Source of the DNA: a virus
Taxonomy: Duplodnaviria > Heunggongvirae > Uroviricota > Caudoviricetes
Virus record (IMG/VR): IMGVR_UViG_2740892526_000019
Strand: one strand, 5' to 3'
DNA: 10,894 nt
In this document: piece by piece, positions 3,001-9,000 of the stretch
Position numbering within the stretch: the stretch's first letter is position 1
Layout: each line of letters opens with the position of its first letter
Position numbers: made by a program

Positions 3001-6000
3001 TACACGAAGCCGCTGAACGTGCGCACCAGACAGAAATTATTTGCCGCCTTCTTGAGGTATACCCTGATAAATTAAATGATGGTGATATATCCGCATTAGC
3101 TGGCCTTCTGGCAAAACTGTCAGGAAGTGTTGCGCTGTGGTTAATTGATGAGAGAGCCGAACGCTATGAAAAATAATAAACTGGCGACCAGTGAATTAAG
3201 AAGCCTTGCCAACAGCGCAATATCTTTAAACAACGCAGCAAACGAAGTAATGAATATGTGGCTTCAGTCGCTGGTGAATAATGAACGCGATGAATCAACT
3301 GCAAGATTAATATTAGCCGTTTCTGAATTACTGGATAGTTCAACCAGCAAAATAGAGAGCATATCAGAGAAGATTAACGGCTTATCAGGTCACGCTATCG
3401 GGGAATAAAAATAATGAAACTTAAATATCCTGGCTTAACTGACAGCGGCAAAACTCGCACTAAATTCATGCGCGGGGATATTTACCGCGACCAGTACGGC
3501 GGCACGGTAATGATTAAGGGCGTGGAGGAACGGCGCGTAACCTACCATCGTGAAGGCTACGAATATGATTGCGTGATGCCTGTTTATCAGTTCCGGCGTG
3601 ATTTTTCTCTGGTACAGGCAGCGCCCCGCAGTAAACCAACCAGCAGGGAGAAAGCACGCGCCAATATTCAGGAAATAAAAAAGATGCTTAACGTATTCAG
3701 GGGTAAAAAATGAAACTGGCACCGAACGTAAAAAAACAGCCACGCGGAATAAAACACAAAGACACAGAGGTGATTATTTTCGCGGGTAGTGATGCGTGGG
3801 CACATGCAAAACAGTGGCAGGAGCAGGACGGCCCCGCATCCGGCGATAATGTGCCTCCTGTGTGGCTTGGGGAGCAGCAGTTATCAGAACTGGATAAGCT
3901 GCAAATTGTGCCGGAAGGCAGAAAATCCGTGCGCATATTCAGGGCCGGACATCTTGCACCAGTAATGATCAAGGCGATTGGTCAAAAGCTGGCGGCGGCT
4001 GGTGTACAGGATGCAAATTTTTATCCTGAGGGTATGCACGGTCAGAAGGTGGAGAACTGGCGCGAATATCTGGCCCGTGAGCGGCAGAATCTTTCTGATG
4101 GTCTGGTTATTGAGTTTCCGGTAAAGAAAAAAGATACCGGAAGCCATAGCGATGACGAATTAAAGCCACGCGTTGAAAGTCGCGCCGATGGTGTTTTCTG
4201 GGTAACGCCCAAAGTGGATAAGCAGTCAGGCGAAATTATCCGGCCTGAGACGTGGTTATGTTCTCCGCTTGAACTACTGGGAACGGGGACGATCGGTAAA
4301 GAGCATTACCGCGTGATGCGCTGGAAAAAAACCGCAAACCATGAAGTCATCACAATGGCGATCCCGTGTGGTGGTATCGGCGACCGTGACGGCTGGCGGT
4401 TACTTAAAGATCACGGGCTGAACGTGACAACCAACGGCAAATACAGGGCAATCCTGGCGGACTGGATGCAGTTAAGCGGAAGCCATGAGGAATGGCAGTT
4501 AAGCACAACAACGGGCTGGCATTTTGGCGCGTACATCATGCCGGACGGTTCGATCATTGGTGAATCTGAAAAACCGATCCTGTTTACCGGAAAAAGCGCC
4601 GCGATTAACGGTTATTCCGTGGCGGGCACGGCGGATGGCTGGCGCGACAGCGTGGCGCGGCTGGCTGGCGGTAATGCCTCAATGATACTGGGTGTGGCAA
4701 CGTCACTGGCAGCGCCTTTAATTGGCCTTGTGGGTGCTGACGGCTTCGGGGTGCATCTTTTCGAACAGTCATCGGCAGGTAAGACCACCACGCAGAACAT
4801 CGCATCAAGTTTATGGGGAGAGCCGGACGCGCAGCGGCTGACCTGGTACGGCACGGCGTTAGGTATTGCCAATGAGGCCGAGGCCCATAATGACGGGCTT
4901 TTACCACTGGATGAGATAGGCCAGGCCGGAAATGCGCGGGAAGTGTCAACGTCTGCTTATACGCTGTTTAACGGTTCAGGGAAATTGCAGGGGGCGAAGG
5001 ATGGCGGCAACAGGGAGATCAAACACTGGCGAACGGTGGCAATCAGCACCGGAGAAATGGACGTTGAGACATTCCTCAAAAGTGAGGGGATAAAAGTTAA
5101 GGCGGGGCAGCTTGTCCGACTGCTTAACGTTCCGATGGAAAAAGCCACGAAATTTCACGAATACAGCAACGGTAAGGAACATGCTGACGCGTTAAAGGAT
5201 GCCTGGACAGCAAATCACGGGGCGGCGGGTCGTGAGTGGGTTAAATGGCTGGCAGGCCACCAGCAGGAGGCAAAGGACACGGTAAGGGAATGCCGCGAAC
5301 GGTGGCGCAACCTGATACCGGAGAGTTACGGCGAGCAGGTCCACCGCGTGGGTGAACGTTTCGCCATACTGGAGGCCGCGCTTGTGCTTTCCGGTCATGT
5401 AACTGGCTGGGTCGTGCAGGAATGCCGCGACGCGATACAGCATAACTTTAATGCCTGGGTGAAGGAGTTCGGCACGGGTAACAGGGAATTTAAACAGATG
5501 GTTGAACAGGCTGAGGCGTTTTTGTCGTCGTTTGGGTTTAGCCGCTACCTTCCGCACCCCAATACAGATGAGCGTGATTTACCGATTAAAGAGCTTGCCG
5601 GATACAGAAAAGGGAGCATTCGCAACGAAGATGACGAGATGCGCTATTACACGTTCCCGCACGTGTTTGAGAGTGAGATAGCGAAGGGATTTAATCCGGC
5701 GCATTTTGCGCGTGCCCTGGATGCTGCCGGAATGCTGGAGAAGGGAAGCGATCGCCGATACAAAAAAAAGGCGCTGGGCAAGATTGGGGGTAAGCAGCAT
5801 GTTTTTTACGTGCTGATGTTCCAGCCTGATGATGAAGATTAATCCCCTGTGTGAGGAAAAAAATTGCGGGTTATGCGGGTTATCCTGTGTATAAGTGTAT
5901 TAAGTGTATGAATATAAAGGAAATCAATAACCCGCACGTAACCCGCAAAAGGGCATTTATAACCCGCAAAAGCACGATTATAACCCGCAGGCGAATAACT

Positions 6001-9000
6001 GAAGTAACACCGGACAGTCATGCGTAACCCGCAGAAAAAACCCCGTTTGCGGGTTATTTTGAGCGTTTTGCGGGTTACGTGTTGAGCAAATAATAAACAG
6101 GGTGTTTTGCAACATGCTGATATAAAAGGGTAAAAAATGGTTAGCACGCTAAGATAACCCAATAACCCGCATAACCCGCACATGTTTCTATATATATAAA
6201 TTGAGGTGGCAAATGACCAGAACACGCAGAGACAGAACAGAGCCGAAATATAAAGCGTTAGATATAACAGAGCTGGCCTTAAAGGTGGCAATCAGAACGA
6301 TAGACCGACACGTAGGGGAAGGATACGCGAAGGAACATCCCGACCTGATAAGCGCATTCATGACCACAGCAGCGGCAAACTTTGCCACGTTGACAGAACG
6401 GGAGATTGCCGAAGCGGAACAGGTAACAACCATCAACGTTAAAACCGGAGAGGTGGAATCATGACAGCACAGATAGCGGCTTACGGGCGGCTGGTGGACG
6501 ACCCGCAGGTAAAACAGACCAGTAAGGGCACACCGATGACGCTGGCGCGTATGGCGGTATCGTTGCCATGTAGTCAGGCGCAGGATGGGCAGGCGACGTT
6601 ATGGCTATCGGTCATCGCATTTGGTAAGCAGGCCGACTTCCTGGCTAAACATCAAAAAGGCGACGTTGCCAGCGTATCCGGCACGATGCAGGTCAGCCAG
6701 TGGACCGGACAGAACGGGGAAACGCGGCAGGGTTATCAGGTTATTGCAGACAGCGTAATCAGTGCCCGTGCGGCACGTCCTGGCGGGAACAGACGCAAAA
6801 CCACAGGCACACAGGGTAATCAGCCACCAGCGGGAGGCGATGACCCTTACGGTGACGGTATTCCGTTCTGAGGGGGTGGCGATGGTACATGACCGCATAG
6901 CGGAAGAACTCGAGGCGAAAGGCTTTTACCGGAGGGCGGCGGCGCGATGGGGTGAAGTCATGCTGCTGGTGGAGACAGACAAGGAACGGCATCAGGTTAC
7001 GATGCGACGGCTGGAATGTTCCAGGAAGGCACAGAAGCCACCGGAGCCGCCGGATAACTTCGGAGACCTGAGAAAGGCAGTCGATCGCACTTATGCTGAA
7101 ATGGGTATAGATGGTGTAAGCGATGAAATATGGCGTAATTACCCAGACAGCTAATCAACAGCCGGAGAAATCCGGCTTTTTTTGCACCAGTTGAAACGGT
7201 ATGGCGCATTACCGGGTTTTCGTCACGGTCAGGCATAGTTACTATCTGAAACAAACAGACACAACAGAGGAAAAAACAATGCCGATGAAATTTGATGAGA
7301 TATTAAAACAGCGTGATAAATACCATGCTGACAACATGGAGACGATGAGCATCAATGATTACCGCGCATTCCTGGAGACGGGCGCACTGATTGAAAAGGA
7401 TCAGCATGGTTTTGTGAGATGTGCTCTGTCCGGTGAAATGCTGGCGGTAAATCCTGAACAGATAGATGCATTGATAGAATTTCTGAAAGGGATCAGGGAC
7501 TGAGCACGCATACAGCCGGAGCAATCCGGCTTTTTGTCATTTTTTGTAAATTATTTGTTCGTGGTTGTTCCACGTTGTTCACTGACAGGATCGGCATATT
7601 TTACCCGAACTGAATCATGAGTATTCTCGCCCGTGGTGCCAGGACGCTGGGGCCACTTTCCCGCCTGTTAATGTGCTCGCCAATATTCATTACCAGGCGG
7701 GAAAACGATCGGTGCGATTGCTGATTTCCTTATGAAAAACGGTTGAGTTTTTGCCGCGTCCTGGAGTTCCTTACTTAACCCCAGGACTTTTTTTTATGCC
7801 GAGAATAATCGAATTACGCCAGCAGAAAACCGCCATTAAAAATCAGATGCGCGACATGCTGGAGAACGCGGAAAAAGAAAACCGCAGCCTTAACGATGCA
7901 GAGGGCGCAAAATTTGACGAATTACGCGCTAAAGCTGAATCCCTCGATAAAGACATTTCCCGCCTTGAAGCCATTGCAGACGAAGAGCGCAGCAAGCCAG
8001 GTAAAAGCAGCCAGACCACTGACCCGGCAGAACTCCGCAACTACATCCTGACAGGTGAAACCCGCGCATTAAGTACAGGCGTTCCCGCTGATGGTGGTTA
8101 TACCGTTATCCCCGAACTGAACACCGAAATCATGCGAATGCTGACGGATGAATCCACCATGCGCCGCATCTGTACCGTGAAGAAAATCAGCAGCAACGAG
8201 TTTAAGCAGCTTGTTTCCGCTGGCGGTGCGACCGTTAACCACGGTGAAGAGGGTAAGACACGCGAACAGACCAGCACCCCGCAGATTAACGAGGTGAGCA
8301 TTAAGCTGTATCCGGTCTATGCGTACCCGCGCACCACACAGGAAATCGTGGATTTTTCCGATGTGGACATCCTTTCATGGCTGACGGGTGAGATTGGCGA
8401 CACCTTCACGGAAACCGAAGAAAGCGATCTGGTTGTGGGCGACGGTGACAAAAAAGCAAAAGGTTTTTTATCCGTACCCCGTGCAGAGAAGAACGACAAA
8501 GAGCGTGATTTTGGTACGTTGCAGGTAATTAAACCTTCCGAATCTCTGGCGTGGACATCTGCGGACCCGCTGATCGACCTGAAATTTGCATTACGTAAAA
8601 AATACCGCAAAAACGCGGTCTGGGTGGTTAACTCCACGACGGCGGCAAAACTTCAGAAGGTGAAGAACGCGAACGGTGATTACATCTGGCGCGACCGTTT
8701 ACAGGCGGGTGATCCTGATACGTTGCTGGGCCTTCCGGTCGAATATCTGGAGTTTATGCCTGATAACGTTATTGCCCTGGGTGACTTCAAACGCGGTTAC
8801 TACATTGTTGATCACGAAACAGGTGTTCGCACCAGACCGGACAACCTCACAGAGCCGGGTTTCATCAAAATTTTCACGCAGAAATATTTAGGCGGTGGCG
8901 TGGTGGATTCGAACGCGATCAAGATTCTGGAACTGCCACAGGACGACGATTAACAGCATACAGAAGGGGCTTAAAAGCCCCTTTAGTGTTTTATGGGTGA

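What the first reader, a model, noticed from the sequence alone, without database searches (positions are those of the whole stretch)
5865..6180. Iteron origin with about 12 ATAACCCGCA repeats in both orientations
The repeats sit immediately downstream of the primase/helicase gene and are flanked by AT-rich stretches, the classic layout of a satellite origin bound by its own initiator. Spacings of 11 and 21 bp put several sites on the same DNA face. A convergent pair (6024..6033 and 6048..6057) forms a palindrome around an A/C-rich spacer.
Basis: partly seen in the sequence, partly recalled or inferred. Interest (0 to 1): 0.45.

Follow-up and report, generated by a model that had tools for sequence, protein, structure and literature searches.

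The report
Replication origin of phage satellite EcCIEDL933
The repeats are real and are almost certainly the replication origin of a known E. coli O157:H7 phage satellite, a well-understood kind of origin; the one unexpected point is that half of it turns up on its own in related satellites.

Summary
ATAACCCGCA occurs 11 times (at most 1 mismatch) plus one degenerate copy in 5865-6180, against 0.77 expected for the whole window.

The window is prophage-like element Sp7 of E. coli O157:H7 Sakai, which is the capsid-forming satellite EcCIEDL933. This element is known to excise and replicate. The repeats start 22 bp after the stop codon of a 710-aa DUF927 initiator-helicase related to staphylococcal island Rep proteins.

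In 28 related loci the repeat geometry is the same, but the repeat word falls into six classes. The class tracks only the last ~110 residues of Rep. One E. coli Rep is 93-97% identical in the helicase core yet 30-45% identical in the C-terminus, and it has different iterons.

This is the SaPI/PICI origin layout. It was shown functionally for the sister island EcCICFT073, which uses an unrelated helicase.

The origin is composite, made of module A (5865-5989) and module B (6024-6180). In many relatives B lies 2-9 kb away at the island's right end. B sometimes sits in islands whose Rep uses other iterons. Binding and replication were not tested. The 'primase' label is unverified.

The parts
3710..5842 (+). 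rep: 710-aa initiator-helicase. It has an N-terminal domain (residues 1-~162), a DUF927 helicase core (residues ~171-600) and a C-terminal specificity domain (residues ~601-710).
   Evidence: Pfam DUF927, E=1.4e-48. PHROG 1139 'DNA primase', E=5e-191. PDB 8tch 'Pathogenicity island protein', E=2.5e-12 as a single sequence and 4.3e-16 as a profile; 5dgk 'Active helicase'. No BLASTP similarity to P4 alpha.
5510..5839 (+). Coding region for Rep residues 601-710, the inferred iteron-recognition domain.
   Evidence: This is the only part of Rep whose sequence tracks the iteron class. L034 is 93-97% identical over residues 151-600 but 45/30% identical here, and it has different iterons. L035 is the converse case. 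Statistics over 28 loci are. The fold is not established: the AlphaFold model has pLDDT 47, and the Pfam HTH_56 match is sub-threshold.
5865..5883 (-). Module A, left arm: two tandem iterons, 9 bp start to start.
   Evidence: The same pair sits ~25 and ~34 bp after the rep stop in 20+ relatives with other iteron words.
5884..5926 (.). Module A AT-rich spacer (28% GC). It is the candidate DNA-unwinding element. It contains TAAGTGTAT x2 and a DnaA-box consensus match at 5886-5894 (minus strand).
   Evidence: The 30-mer 5890-5919 is at the 99.96th percentile of duplex instability for the window. GC content is, the DnaA-box match and the direct repeat D7.
5927..5989 (+). Module A, right arm: four iterons spaced 11, 21 and 21 bp.
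   Evidence: The same 11/21/21 spacing occurs in relatives of all six iteron classes.
6024..6078 (.). Module B, left arm: one + iteron (6024), the A/C-rich spacer GAAAAAACCCCGTT, then two - iterons (6048, 6069).
   Evidence: The convergent pair with an AAAACCCC spacer is conserved in fused origins of other classes. In detached B modules the first iteron is in the minus orientation instead.
6079..6152 (.). Module B AT-rich spacer (35% GC).
   Evidence: The 30-mer 6114-6143 is at the 98.3rd percentile of instability.
6154..6180 (+). Module B, right arm: three tandem iterons spaced 8-9 bp. The first is degenerate in this island.
   Evidence: Relatives have three intact copies here.
6181..6212 (.). 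AT-rich right flank with (TA)5 at 6190-6199. This is a second low-stability site, lying directly before the RBS and ATG (6213) of the next gene.
   Evidence: 99.6th percentile. TATATATATA follows module B in every relative, including detached copies at island ends.
6461..6871 (+). Island-encoded single-strand DNA-binding protein. It is probably part of the replication module.
   Evidence: Pfam SSB, E=4e-17. An SSB gene follows the origin in nearly all related islands.

Best explanation
Window 5865-6180 is the vegetative replication origin of the phage satellite EcCIEDL933 (Sakai Sp7).

Proposed mechanism, inferred by analogy with SaPI Rep proteins:
1. After helper-phage induction and excision, the island's 710-aa Rep is made.
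2. Its C-terminal ~110 residues recognise the 9-10-bp iteron (A/G)TAACCCGCA.
3. Rep hexamers assemble on oppositely oriented iteron sets that flank AT-rich DNA. Sites spaced 11 and 21 bp lie on one face of the helix.
4. The AT-rich spacer melts. The best candidate is 5884-5926; alternatives are 6079-6152 and the (TA)5 at 6190-6199.
5. Rep loads itself as the replicative helicase, and the island SSB coats the single strands.

The origin has two modules of the same design, A (5865-5989) and B (6024-6180). Each has minus-oriented iterons, then AT-rich DNA, then plus-oriented iterons.

What is shown here: the repeats, their conserved geometry, Rep homology, and co-variation of the iteron word with the Rep C-terminus.

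What is inferred: binding, melting, helicase loading, and whether both modules are needed.
For: Element identity and replication:
- The window is 100% identical to O157:H7 genomes, and the region is annotated 'prophage Sp7' in Sakai.
- EcCIEDL933 shows the classical PICI replication pattern after HK106/HK446 induction (bioRxiv 10.1101/2022.09.08.507074).
- Sp7 circular DNA accumulates and is packaged (PMC2669165).

Repeats: 11 copies against 0.77 expected.

Rep family:
- DUF927; PDB 8tch E=4e-16 and Cch 5dgk.
- The literature ties DUF927/Cch to the SaPIbov1 Rep. It places SaPI origins directly 3' of rep, recognised by the Rep C-terminal domain (PMC7581432; PMC9371898).

Conservation of geometry:
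- All 20 Rep homologues from other Enterobacterales, and 8 further E. coli loci, carry an iteron cluster starting ~25 bp after the rep stop.
- The spacings are the same (9 | AT | 11, 21, 21 | ... 23-24, 21 | AT | 9, 9).
- There are six different iteron words.

Specificity mapping:
- A 37-aa C-terminal segment is at least 65% identical within an iteron class (median 84%). Between classes the median is 35%.
- The helicase core reaches 97.5% identity between different classes.
- The mosaic pair L034/L035 places the determinant in residues ~601-710.

Functional precedent: the sister island EcCICFT073, at the same attachment site, has an origin in the same position with outer inverted tandem iteron pairs. 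Its pri-rep-ori segment maintained a temperature-sensitive plasmid, and rep or ori mutants did not (PMC6092414; sequence).

Duplex stability: the AT-rich spacer of module A is essentially the least stable 30-mer in the window.

Negative results for other readings: no Rfam family, no sigma-70-like promoter and no annotated CDS in the region.
Against: - There is no direct test of binding or replication for this island or for any DUF927-type Gram-negative PICI. The tested EcCICFT073 Rep has an unrelated, P4-alpha-like helicase and C-terminus.
- The rep 3' end and the origin are adjacent, so they are inherited and recombined together. Co-variation is expected from linkage as well as from function.
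- The fold of the C-terminal domain could not be established (pLDDT 47). HTH_56 matched 1 of 32 homologues.
- Module B with TAACCCGC iterons occurs in islands whose Rep is P4-alpha-like and has its own complete origin with other iterons. B is therefore not always paired with a cognate Rep, and its role is uncertain.
- In about 110 E. coli genomes module A sits beside rep without B. The full 316 bp may not be one obligatory unit.
Confidence: 0.82

Rival explanations
1. Only module A (5865-5989) is the origin proper. Module B (6024-6180) is a separable accessory Rep-binding element. It could be a cis enhancer like P4 crr, a copy-control or handcuffing site, or an element that titrates or borrows Rep between co-resident islands. 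In this island it merely happens to lie next to A.
For: - B is detached from A in many relatives: 8 kb away in the E. coli 042 cf-PICI, 2.2-2.3 kb away in L026, L009 and L160, and 7-9 kb away in six IMG/VR contigs.
- In E. coli genomes A occurs in 252, B in 300 and the fused form in 141.
- B also occurs as an 'orphan' in islands with a P4-alpha-like Rep and other iterons.
- Its iteron bases are 48/48 identical among BH100, E500002 and 042. The spacers differ at 11-20 of ~105 positions (p=0.014 to 0.0003).
- P4 itself has two clusters of the same alpha-binding repeat 4.5 kb apart, crr and ori (GenBank X51522 annotation).
Against: - The fused A+B arrangement is the most widespread across genera and across all six iteron classes.
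- The functionally tested EcCICFT073 origin is likewise one contiguous ~290-bp block with outer inverted tandem pairs.
- B has the same design as A, with inverted iteron sets around AT-rich DNA followed by (TA)5. It therefore looks like an origin core rather than a mere binding array.
- No experiment distinguishes the two modules.
Confidence: 0.12
2. The repeats are operator sites of a transcriptional control region. They would serve Rep autoregulation, or another island regulator, to control the downstream operon (hypothetical gene, ssb, perC/pchE and the capsid genes), rather than acting as a replication origin.
For: - The region is the 370-bp gap between rep and the next co-oriented gene.
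- Module B ends 33 bp before that gene's ATG, with a good RBS.
- Initiators of iteron plasmids often also repress transcription (general knowledge).
Against: - No sigma-70-like promoter was found in 5700-6400.
- The same modules occur at island right ends with no island gene downstream.
- The downstream gene differs between relatives while the repeat geometry is constant.
- Twelve sites with helical phasing around two easily melted segments is origin-like.
- A dual role is not excluded.
Confidence: 0.04
3. The repeats are a packaging signal (terminase small-subunit binding sites, cos or pac) or integrase/excisionase arm sites.
For: - Satellites carry such repeated sites.
- Detached module B lies near the attachment end of islands.
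Against: - The iteron word follows the Rep C-terminus, not the packaging module or the integration site. The same B occurs in islands with HK97-type terminase genes, in islands with a protease-capsid fusion, and at four different chromosomal sites.
- In HK97-like systems cos lies next to terS (general knowledge).
- The Sakai island's right end has a different repeat family.
Confidence: 0.02

Closest known systems
SaPI / Gram-positive PICI replication origins (SaPIbov1, SaPI1: Rep helicase plus iteron ori)
   Same: - The origin lies immediately 3' of rep.
- It has 6-12 short iterons in two oppositely oriented sets around an AT-rich region.
- The initiator is itself a self-loading hexameric helicase whose C-terminal domain gives origin specificity (PMC9371898; PMC7581432).
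- The window's Rep is a sequence homologue of this family (DUF927; PDB 8tch E=4e-16).
   Different: - The iterons are 9-10 bp rather than penta- or hexanucleotides.
- There are two tandem modules rather than one, and the second can be relocated.
- The Rep carries an extra N-terminal domain shared with the E. coli P4-alpha-like Pri-Reps.
- The host is Gram-negative, and the island makes its own capsids.
EcCICFT073 pri-rep-ori, the experimentally tested E. coli PICI origin (Fillol-Salom et al. 2018, PMC6092414)
   Same: - It has the same chromosomal attachment site (roxA/phoQ) and the same gene order: int, alpA, DUF4222, rep, ori, hypothetical gene, ssb, perC.
- The origin is in the same position and of similar size. 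It has a 9-bp tandem iteron pair at each end in inverted orientation and an AT-rich spacer after the first pair.
- The first ~160 Rep residues are 82% identical.
   Different: - Its helicase and C-terminal domains are unrelated to the window's. They are 41% identical to P4 alpha residues 324-756, whereas the window's Rep has no detectable similarity to alpha.
- Its iteron word is GGTAGA(C/T)A, not TAACCCGCA.
- Function was shown for EcCICFT073 only.
Satellite phage P4 ori + crr with the alpha primase-helicase
   Same: - It is a satellite of enterobacterial phages with a multifunctional initiator-helicase.
- Short repeats in both orientations lie 46 bp after the alpha stop (crr).
- A second cluster of the same repeat lies 4.5 kb away (ori) (X51522 annotation).
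- This parallels relatives of the window in which module A follows rep and module B lies 2-9 kb away near att.
   Different: - In the window the two clusters are contiguous.
- The window's Rep is not homologous to alpha.
- That both P4 clusters are required in cis is from my own knowledge of the P4 literature. It was not verified here, and no equivalent requirement is known for PICIs.
Iteron origins of theta plasmids (pSC101, R6K, RK2, P1, F)
   Same: Repeated initiator-binding sites lie next to AT-rich DNA. A DnaA-box consensus match lies inside the AT-rich spacer (5886-5894).
   Different: - Plasmid iterons are 17-22 bp direct repeats bound by a winged-helix RepA-type protein that recruits host DnaB.
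- Here the sites are 9-10 bp, in both orientations, and the initiator is itself a helicase.
- The plasmid features are from general knowledge.

Membership tests
PICI/SaPI-type Rep-iteron origin | Located immediately 3' of the island's rep (initiator-helicase) gene | tested here: met
   The first iteron starts 22 bp after the rep stop. The same placement, ~25 bp after the stop, is seen in 28 related loci.
PICI/SaPI-type Rep-iteron origin | Two sets of short iterons in opposite orientation flanking an AT-rich region | tested here: met
   The feature is met twice. Module A has 2 minus iterons, a 43-bp spacer at 28% GC, then 4 plus iterons. Module B has 2 minus iterons, a 74-bp spacer at 35% GC, then 3 plus iterons.
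PICI/SaPI-type Rep-iteron origin | Initiator is a Rep-family self-loading helicase | tested here: met
   Homology only: DUF927 E=1.4e-48; 8tch 'Pathogenicity island protein' E=4.3e-16 over profile positions 210-605; Cch 5dgk E=2.8e-5. Helicase activity was not tested.
PICI/SaPI-type Rep-iteron origin | The Rep C-terminal domain recognises the iterons specifically (cognate Rep-ori pairs) | tested here: inconclusive
   Strong co-variation: there are six iteron classes, each with its own C-terminal sequence, and mosaic Reps map the determinant to residues ~601-710.
PICI/SaPI-type Rep-iteron origin | The rep-ori segment drives autonomous replication, and ori deletion abolishes it | not testable with these tools
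   This has been shown only for EcCICFT073 (PMC6092414) and for SaPIs. The whole EcCIEDL933 island replicates after induction.
PICI/SaPI-type Rep-iteron origin | The host element is a phage-inducible chromosomal island | tested here: met
   The gene content is int, alpA, rep, ssb, perC, capsid, protease and portal. The window is identical to Sakai Sp7 = EcCIEDL933.
P4-type bipartite origin (ori + crr) | Two clusters of the same initiator-binding repeat separated by kilobases | tested here: not met
   In the window the two modules are 34 bp apart (5989 to 6024). The feature is met in relatives such as the E. coli 042 islands, L026 and six IMG/VR contigs. The P4 layout was read from X51522.
P4-type bipartite origin (ori + crr) | Initiator homologous to P4 alpha (DnaG-type primase plus D5/SF3 helicase plus winged helix) | tested here: not met
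   BLASTP of the window Rep against alpha gives a best E of 0.47. EcCICFT073 Pri-Rep against alpha gives E=1e-112.
Theta-plasmid iteron origin (RepA/pi/TrfA type) | 17-22-bp direct-repeat iterons bound by a non-helicase winged-helix initiator | tested here: not met
   The repeats are 9-10 bp and in both orientations. The adjacent initiator is a 710-aa helicase-family protein.

The most novel reading that the evidence does not exclude
The PICI origin is modular. Module B is an independently mobile ~310-bp Rep-binding cassette that islands keep at their att-proximal end even when their own Rep is of an unrelated family with different iterons.

If the 'orphan' B modules are functional, several things could follow:
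- One satellite could be replicated, or have its copy number restrained, by the Rep of a different co-resident satellite. That would be cross-satellite piggy-backing or incompatibility.
- In matched islands A and B could cooperate at a distance, as P4 crr and ori do.
Probability: 0.15. Interest if true: 0.55.

Novelty: new member of a known kind. Interest (0 to 1): 0.3.

Why it matters
- It places the origin of the prototype capsid-forming PICI. The papers I could search describe that element's replication but not its ori.
- It gives a ready set of six Rep C-terminus/iteron specificity pairs with constant geometry. These could be used to dissect how DUF927-type self-loading helicases read DNA.
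- The practical value is modest: minimal replicons, and compatibility rules for engineered satellites.
- The detached and orphan B modules are the only part that could change how satellite replication and inter-satellite interactions are viewed.

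Tried and rejected
- AlphaFold model of Rep residues 590-710, using a 33-sequence alignment. pLDDT was 47, so it was not used for fold search.
- Pfam HTH_56 (the Cch C-terminal HTH) as support for a winged helix. The match is sub-threshold in the window protein and was found in only 1 of 32 homologues.
- N-terminal domain model (pLDDT 77) searched against the PDB. No match reached E<=0.001. The best hits, DnaG RNA-polymerase domains at E=0.017, are only a hint of a Toprim-like fold, so the 'primase' label stays unverified.
- Rfam search of 5700-6400: nothing found.
- Sigma-70 promoter scan: none found. There were two weak terminator-like hairpins, no more than in shuffles.
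- Phage GenBank collection: no match to rep+ori.
- Literature search for 'cf-PICI' with 'iterons': no paper. P4 crr papers in the library gave no mechanistic text, so the P4 layout was read from the GenBank record instead.
- The TAACCCG-containing repeats at the Sakai island's right end were considered as possible weak iterons. I rejected this: they belong to a different ~20-bp repeat family, TAAC..TGATATTTTCG.
- The first automatic iteron-class assignment was faulty. It was redone with manual classes. L028, L019, L024 and L027 have frame problems or truncation and were used only for DNA features.

Full report
**The observation**

ATAACCCGCA with at most one mismatch occurs 12 times in the window. 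Eleven of these lie between 5865 and 6180. The expectation from 200 dinucleotide-preserving shuffles is 0.77 for the whole window, and no shuffle reached 12.

The nine-base core TAACCCGCA is exact in all eleven copies. A twelfth, degenerate copy (ATAACCCAAT) lies at 6154, where relatives have an intact repeat.

The orientations are - - | + + + + | + - - | (+) + +. Start-to-start spacings are 9, 53, 11, 21, 21, 44, 24, 21, 85, 8 and 9 bp.

The first repeat begins 22 bp after the stop codon of the 710-aa ORF (3710-5842). The AT-rich DNA lies mostly between the repeat groups: 5884-5926 at 28% GC and 6079-6152 at 35% GC. There is also an AT-rich right flank, 6181-6212 at 28% GC, which contains (TA)5.

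**What the window is**

The region is 100% identical to E. coli O157:H7 genomes. In strain Sakai it lies inside 'prophage Sp7; untypable', and window position 1 is the start of the Sp7 integrase gene.

The gene content along the + strand is as follows:
- integrase
- AlpA
- several small ORFs
- DUF4222
- the 710-aa DUF927 protein
- the repeat region
- an 83-aa protein
- SSB
- PerC/PchE
- major capsid protein
- prohead protease
- portal protein

This element is EcCIEDL933, the prototype capsid-forming phage-inducible chromosomal island (cf-PICI). It shows the classical PICI replication and packaging pattern after induction of helper prophages HK106 or HK446 (bioRxiv 10.1101/2022.09.08.507074). 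An earlier study of Sakai found that Sp7 excises, accumulates as circular DNA and is packaged (PMC2669165).

Neither that preprint nor the 2018 survey of Gram-negative PICIs describes this island's origin in the text or the supplementary tables held in the library. In that survey the island is listed only as 'PICI?'. Figures are not held, so I cannot exclude that the iterons appear in a figure.

**The initiator**

The 710-aa protein matches Pfam DUF927 (E=1.4e-48, residues 171-438) and PHROG 1139 'DNA primase'.

Against the PDB it matches 8tch, named 'Pathogenicity island protein' (E=2.5e-12, or 4.3e-16 with a family profile, over positions ~210-605). It also matches 5dgk, named 'Active helicase'.

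The literature states three relevant points (PMC7581432; PMC9371898):
- The DUF927 helicase Cch of SCCmec is related to the SaPIbov1 Rep.
- SaPI Reps are self-loading initiator-helicases.
- Their C-terminal domain recognises iterons that lie directly downstream of rep, in two opposed sets around an AT-rich centre.

The window's protein has no detectable similarity to P4 alpha, despite older annotation to that effect.

Its first ~160 residues are 82% identical to the N-terminus of the EcCICFT073 Pri-Rep. The rest of that protein is P4-alpha-like: 41% identity to alpha residues 324-756.

A reasonably confident model of this shared N-terminal domain (pLDDT 77) has no significant structural match. 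The best hits are DnaG RNA-polymerase domains at E=0.017.

**Comparative test of the origin hypothesis**

Twenty Rep homologues (55-74% identity) were retrieved from other Enterobacterales: Escherichia albertii, Serratia, Rahnella, Pantoea, Yersinia, Citrobacter, Cedecea and others. Further E. coli loci came from complete genomes and assemblies.

Every locus with readable sequence has a repeat cluster starting ~25 bp after the rep stop. The architecture is the same in all of them:
- two tandem sites 9 bp apart
- an AT-rich gap of ~53-64 bp
- then sites spaced 11, 21 and 21 bp in the opposite orientation
- in most loci, a second block: one site, two inverted sites at +23/24 and +21, an AT-rich gap of 52-94 bp, and two or three tandem sites 8-9 bp apart, followed by TATATATATA

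The repeated word differs between lineages:
- TAACCCGC(A): the window and its close E. coli relatives
- TAACCCAC
- TGAACCACG
- TGAACCAAC
- GAACCG(A/G)
- (C/G)TT(G/A)TCCCA

Constant geometry with concerted replacement of the word is what a protein-DNA recognition pair predicts.

**Mapping the specificity determinant**

Within E. coli the Rep genes are mosaic, and two loci are informative.

- L034 is 97, 97 and 93% identical to the window's Rep over residues 151-300, 301-450 and 451-600. It is only 45% and 30% identical over residues 601-660 and 661-710. Its iterons are TGGGAC(A/G)AC.
- L035 is only 47% and 75% identical over residues 1-150 and 151-300, but 95% and 88% identical in the C-terminus. 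Its iterons are TAACCCGCA.

Over 28 loci I compared a 37-residue C-terminal segment, corresponding to window residues ~666-702 (…AGMLEKGSDRRYKKKALGKIGGKQHVFYVL). It is at least 65% identical within an iteron class, with a median of 84%. Between classes the median is 35%. The closest between-class pair, at 76%, differs by a single iteron base. The helicase core reaches 97.5% identity between different classes.

So the iteron word tracks the last ~110 residues of Rep and nothing else in the protein.

Two caveats apply. This segment and the origin are adjacent on the DNA and would be exchanged together. The fold of the segment could not be confirmed either: the AlphaFold model has pLDDT 47, and Pfam HTH_56 is sub-threshold and matches only 1 of 32 homologues.

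**Functional precedent**

EcCICFT073 sits at the same chromosomal site (roxA/phoQ) and has the same gene order. Its 288-bp region after pri-rep carries GGTAGA(C/T)A iterons. It has a 9-bp tandem pair at each end in inverted orientation and an AT-rich spacer after the first pair.

That pri-rep-ori segment maintained a temperature-sensitive plasmid at the restrictive temperature. Mutants in rep or ori did not. [quoted passage not shown]

The window's region is therefore a new member of a known kind. It is the DUF927 (SaPIbov1-Rep-like) counterpart of an origin type that has been shown functionally in E. coli only for a P4-alpha-like Rep.

**Likely melting sites, and readings that were excluded**

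By nearest-neighbour stability, 5890-5919 is at the 99.96th percentile of all 30-mers in the window. 6179-6208 is at the 99.6th percentile and 6114-6143 at the 98.3rd.

A perfect DnaA-box consensus match (TTATACACA) lies at 5886-5894 on the minus strand. It is not conserved in other iteron classes, so I give it little weight.

There is no Rfam match and no sigma-70-like promoter. RefSeq annotates no gene under the region in the E. coli genome records listed for the intergenic query. The mechanical ORFs across the region are not supported by any annotation.

**The origin is composite**

Searching E. coli genomes with the intergenic region gave many half-length matches. The region splits into two modules:
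- Module A, 5865-5989
- Module B, 6024-6180, plus the (TA)5

In the E. coli 042 cf-PICI, A follows rep while B lies 8 kb away, after terL at the island's right end. There B has three minus iterons, an AT-rich gap and three plus iterons.

A second 042 island at tRNA-Pro has A after rep and B 2.3 kb downstream at its right end. Both carry CTTGTCCCA-class iterons. Serratia fonticola L026 and E. albertii L009 have B ~2.2-2.3 kb downstream. Six IMG/VR contigs have B 7-9 kb from A.

Counts among 5,426 complete E. coli genomes:

| Iteron class | Module A | Module B | Fused A+B |
|---|---|---|---|
| TAACCCGC | 252 genomes | 300 genomes | 141 genomes |
| TGGGACAAC | 29 genomes | 92 genomes | not counted |

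**Orphan B modules**

Some B modules are not matched to the resident Rep. Islands in strains BH100 and E500002, and IMG/VR contigs L117, L126 and L134, encode a P4-alpha-like Rep with its own complete origin. Their own iterons are GGTAGACA-like, or in L126 and L134 GGTGAACA, which is the P4 type-1 word. Yet each carries a B module with perfect TAACCCGC iterons at the right end.

The conserved right-end cassette is ~310 bp long and occurs at four different chromosomal sites. About 110 bp downstream of B is conserved even between iteron classes.

Among BH100, E500002 and 042 the 48 iteron positions are all identical. The spacer positions differ at 11-20 of ~105 (Fisher p=0.014 to 0.0003). This is compatible with selection on the iterons but does not prove it, because the lineage histories are unknown.

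**How I read this**

The fused arrangement in the window is the commonest across genera. It resembles the tested EcCICFT073 origin, so I treat 5865-6180 as one origin with two like modules. Whether A alone suffices is open. It is also open whether B is a second origin core, a distal enhancer like P4 crr, or a relic in orphan cases.

P4 offers a formal parallel. Its GenBank record annotates crr 46 bp after the alpha stop and ori 4.5 kb away, both built from the same 'type 1' repeats. That both are required in cis is from my memory of the P4 literature and was not checked here. The window fails two defining P4 features, separated clusters and an alpha-like initiator. It works somewhat like P4 but is not a member of that system.

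**Verdict**

The repeats are real and far beyond chance.

It is an ordinary feature of a known class, in an element already known to replicate. Its specific origin appears not to have been described.

- Confidence that this is the Rep-dependent origin: about 0.8.
- Interest: about 0.3. The modular and orphan behaviour of module B is the only potentially surprising lead.

Noticed in passing
L008 8000-8152 and 16168-16290; L160 9673-9908 and 12001-12130; L026 about 6490-6610; IMG/VR loci L068, L081, L092, L093, L132, L145: In many related islands the second half of the origin (module B) is detached from the half next to rep. It lies 2-9 kb away at the island's right end next to the attachment site. 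Its iterons are usually of the same class as the island's own module A.
   Followed up: yes
L038 17939-18091 (BH100); L039 / L006 2981-3134 (E500002); L117, L126, L134: 'Orphan' module B copies with perfect TAACCCGC iterons sit in islands whose Rep is P4-alpha-like and has its own complete origin with different iterons. At least 48 E. coli genomes have B without any A of that class (300 against 252 genomes).
   Followed up: partly
L005 3136-3250; L160 12131-12250: About 110 bp following right-end module B is conserved across islands at different chromosomal sites and across iteron classes. The sequence is TATATATATACGAAAAATTGCATTCAGGAGGGGG.CGAAATTCCTGCAATCCATTACTTATGGAACT.TCCGCCCCGTCAAATTTTTAC. 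Its function is unknown.
   Followed up: no
window 3710-4195 (Rep residues 1-162) versus L037 9242-9730: The N-terminal ~160 residues are 82% identical between this DUF927 Rep and the otherwise unrelated P4-alpha-like Pri-Rep of EcCICFT073. One N-terminal domain is therefore fused to two different helicase families. Its fold gives only a weak DnaG/Toprim-like hint (E=0.017).
   Followed up: partly
window 5886-5894 (minus strand): A perfect DnaA-box consensus match (TTATACACA) lies inside the AT-rich spacer of module A. It is kept in close relatives but not in other iteron classes.
   Followed up: partly
L008 6982-7725 and 22956-23984 (E. coli 042): The 042 cf-PICI is integrated inside the large-terminase gene of a resident prophage, splitting that gene into two annotated fragments.
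   Followed up: no
L001 19740-20160 (Sakai Sp7 right end, outside the window): There are about seven copies of a different ~20-bp repeat (consensus roughly TAAC..G.TGATATTTTCG) between the last island gene and the attachment site. EcCICFT073 has them too. They may be packaging or recombination sites.
   Followed up: no
L126 and L134 (IMG/VR contigs), downstream of the P4-alpha-like rep: These islands use the word GGTGAACA(G), which is the P4 type-1 repeat TGTTCACC, nine times after a Rep that is only 44% identical to the EcCICFT073 Pri-Rep.
   Followed up: no
window 3710-5842: A 2009 study described the Sp7 replication gene as P4-alpha-like and broken into three fragments (PMC2669165). In the current sequence it is one intact 710-aa ORF and is not alpha-like. 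Locus tags ECs_1583-1585 are absent from the present annotation.
   Followed up: partly
L019 (Yersinia pekkanenii), about 5.7 kb and 1.1 kb upstream of the rep stop: There are three similar GAACCAA iteron clusters about 4.6 kb apart in one contig, together with a rep match containing many stops. This could be tandem islands, a duplication or an assembly artefact.
   Followed up: no
window 1970-1979 and 8059-8065: Isolated iteron-like words lie inside coding regions: ATAACCCGCT with 1 mismatch at 1970-1979, and AACCCGC at 8059-8065. The number is consistent with chance (0.77 expected per window).
   Followed up: no
window 6882-7154: The island carries pchE, a PerC-family regulator. PICI-encoded PerC homologues are reported to activate the LEE pathogenicity island.
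   Followed up: no
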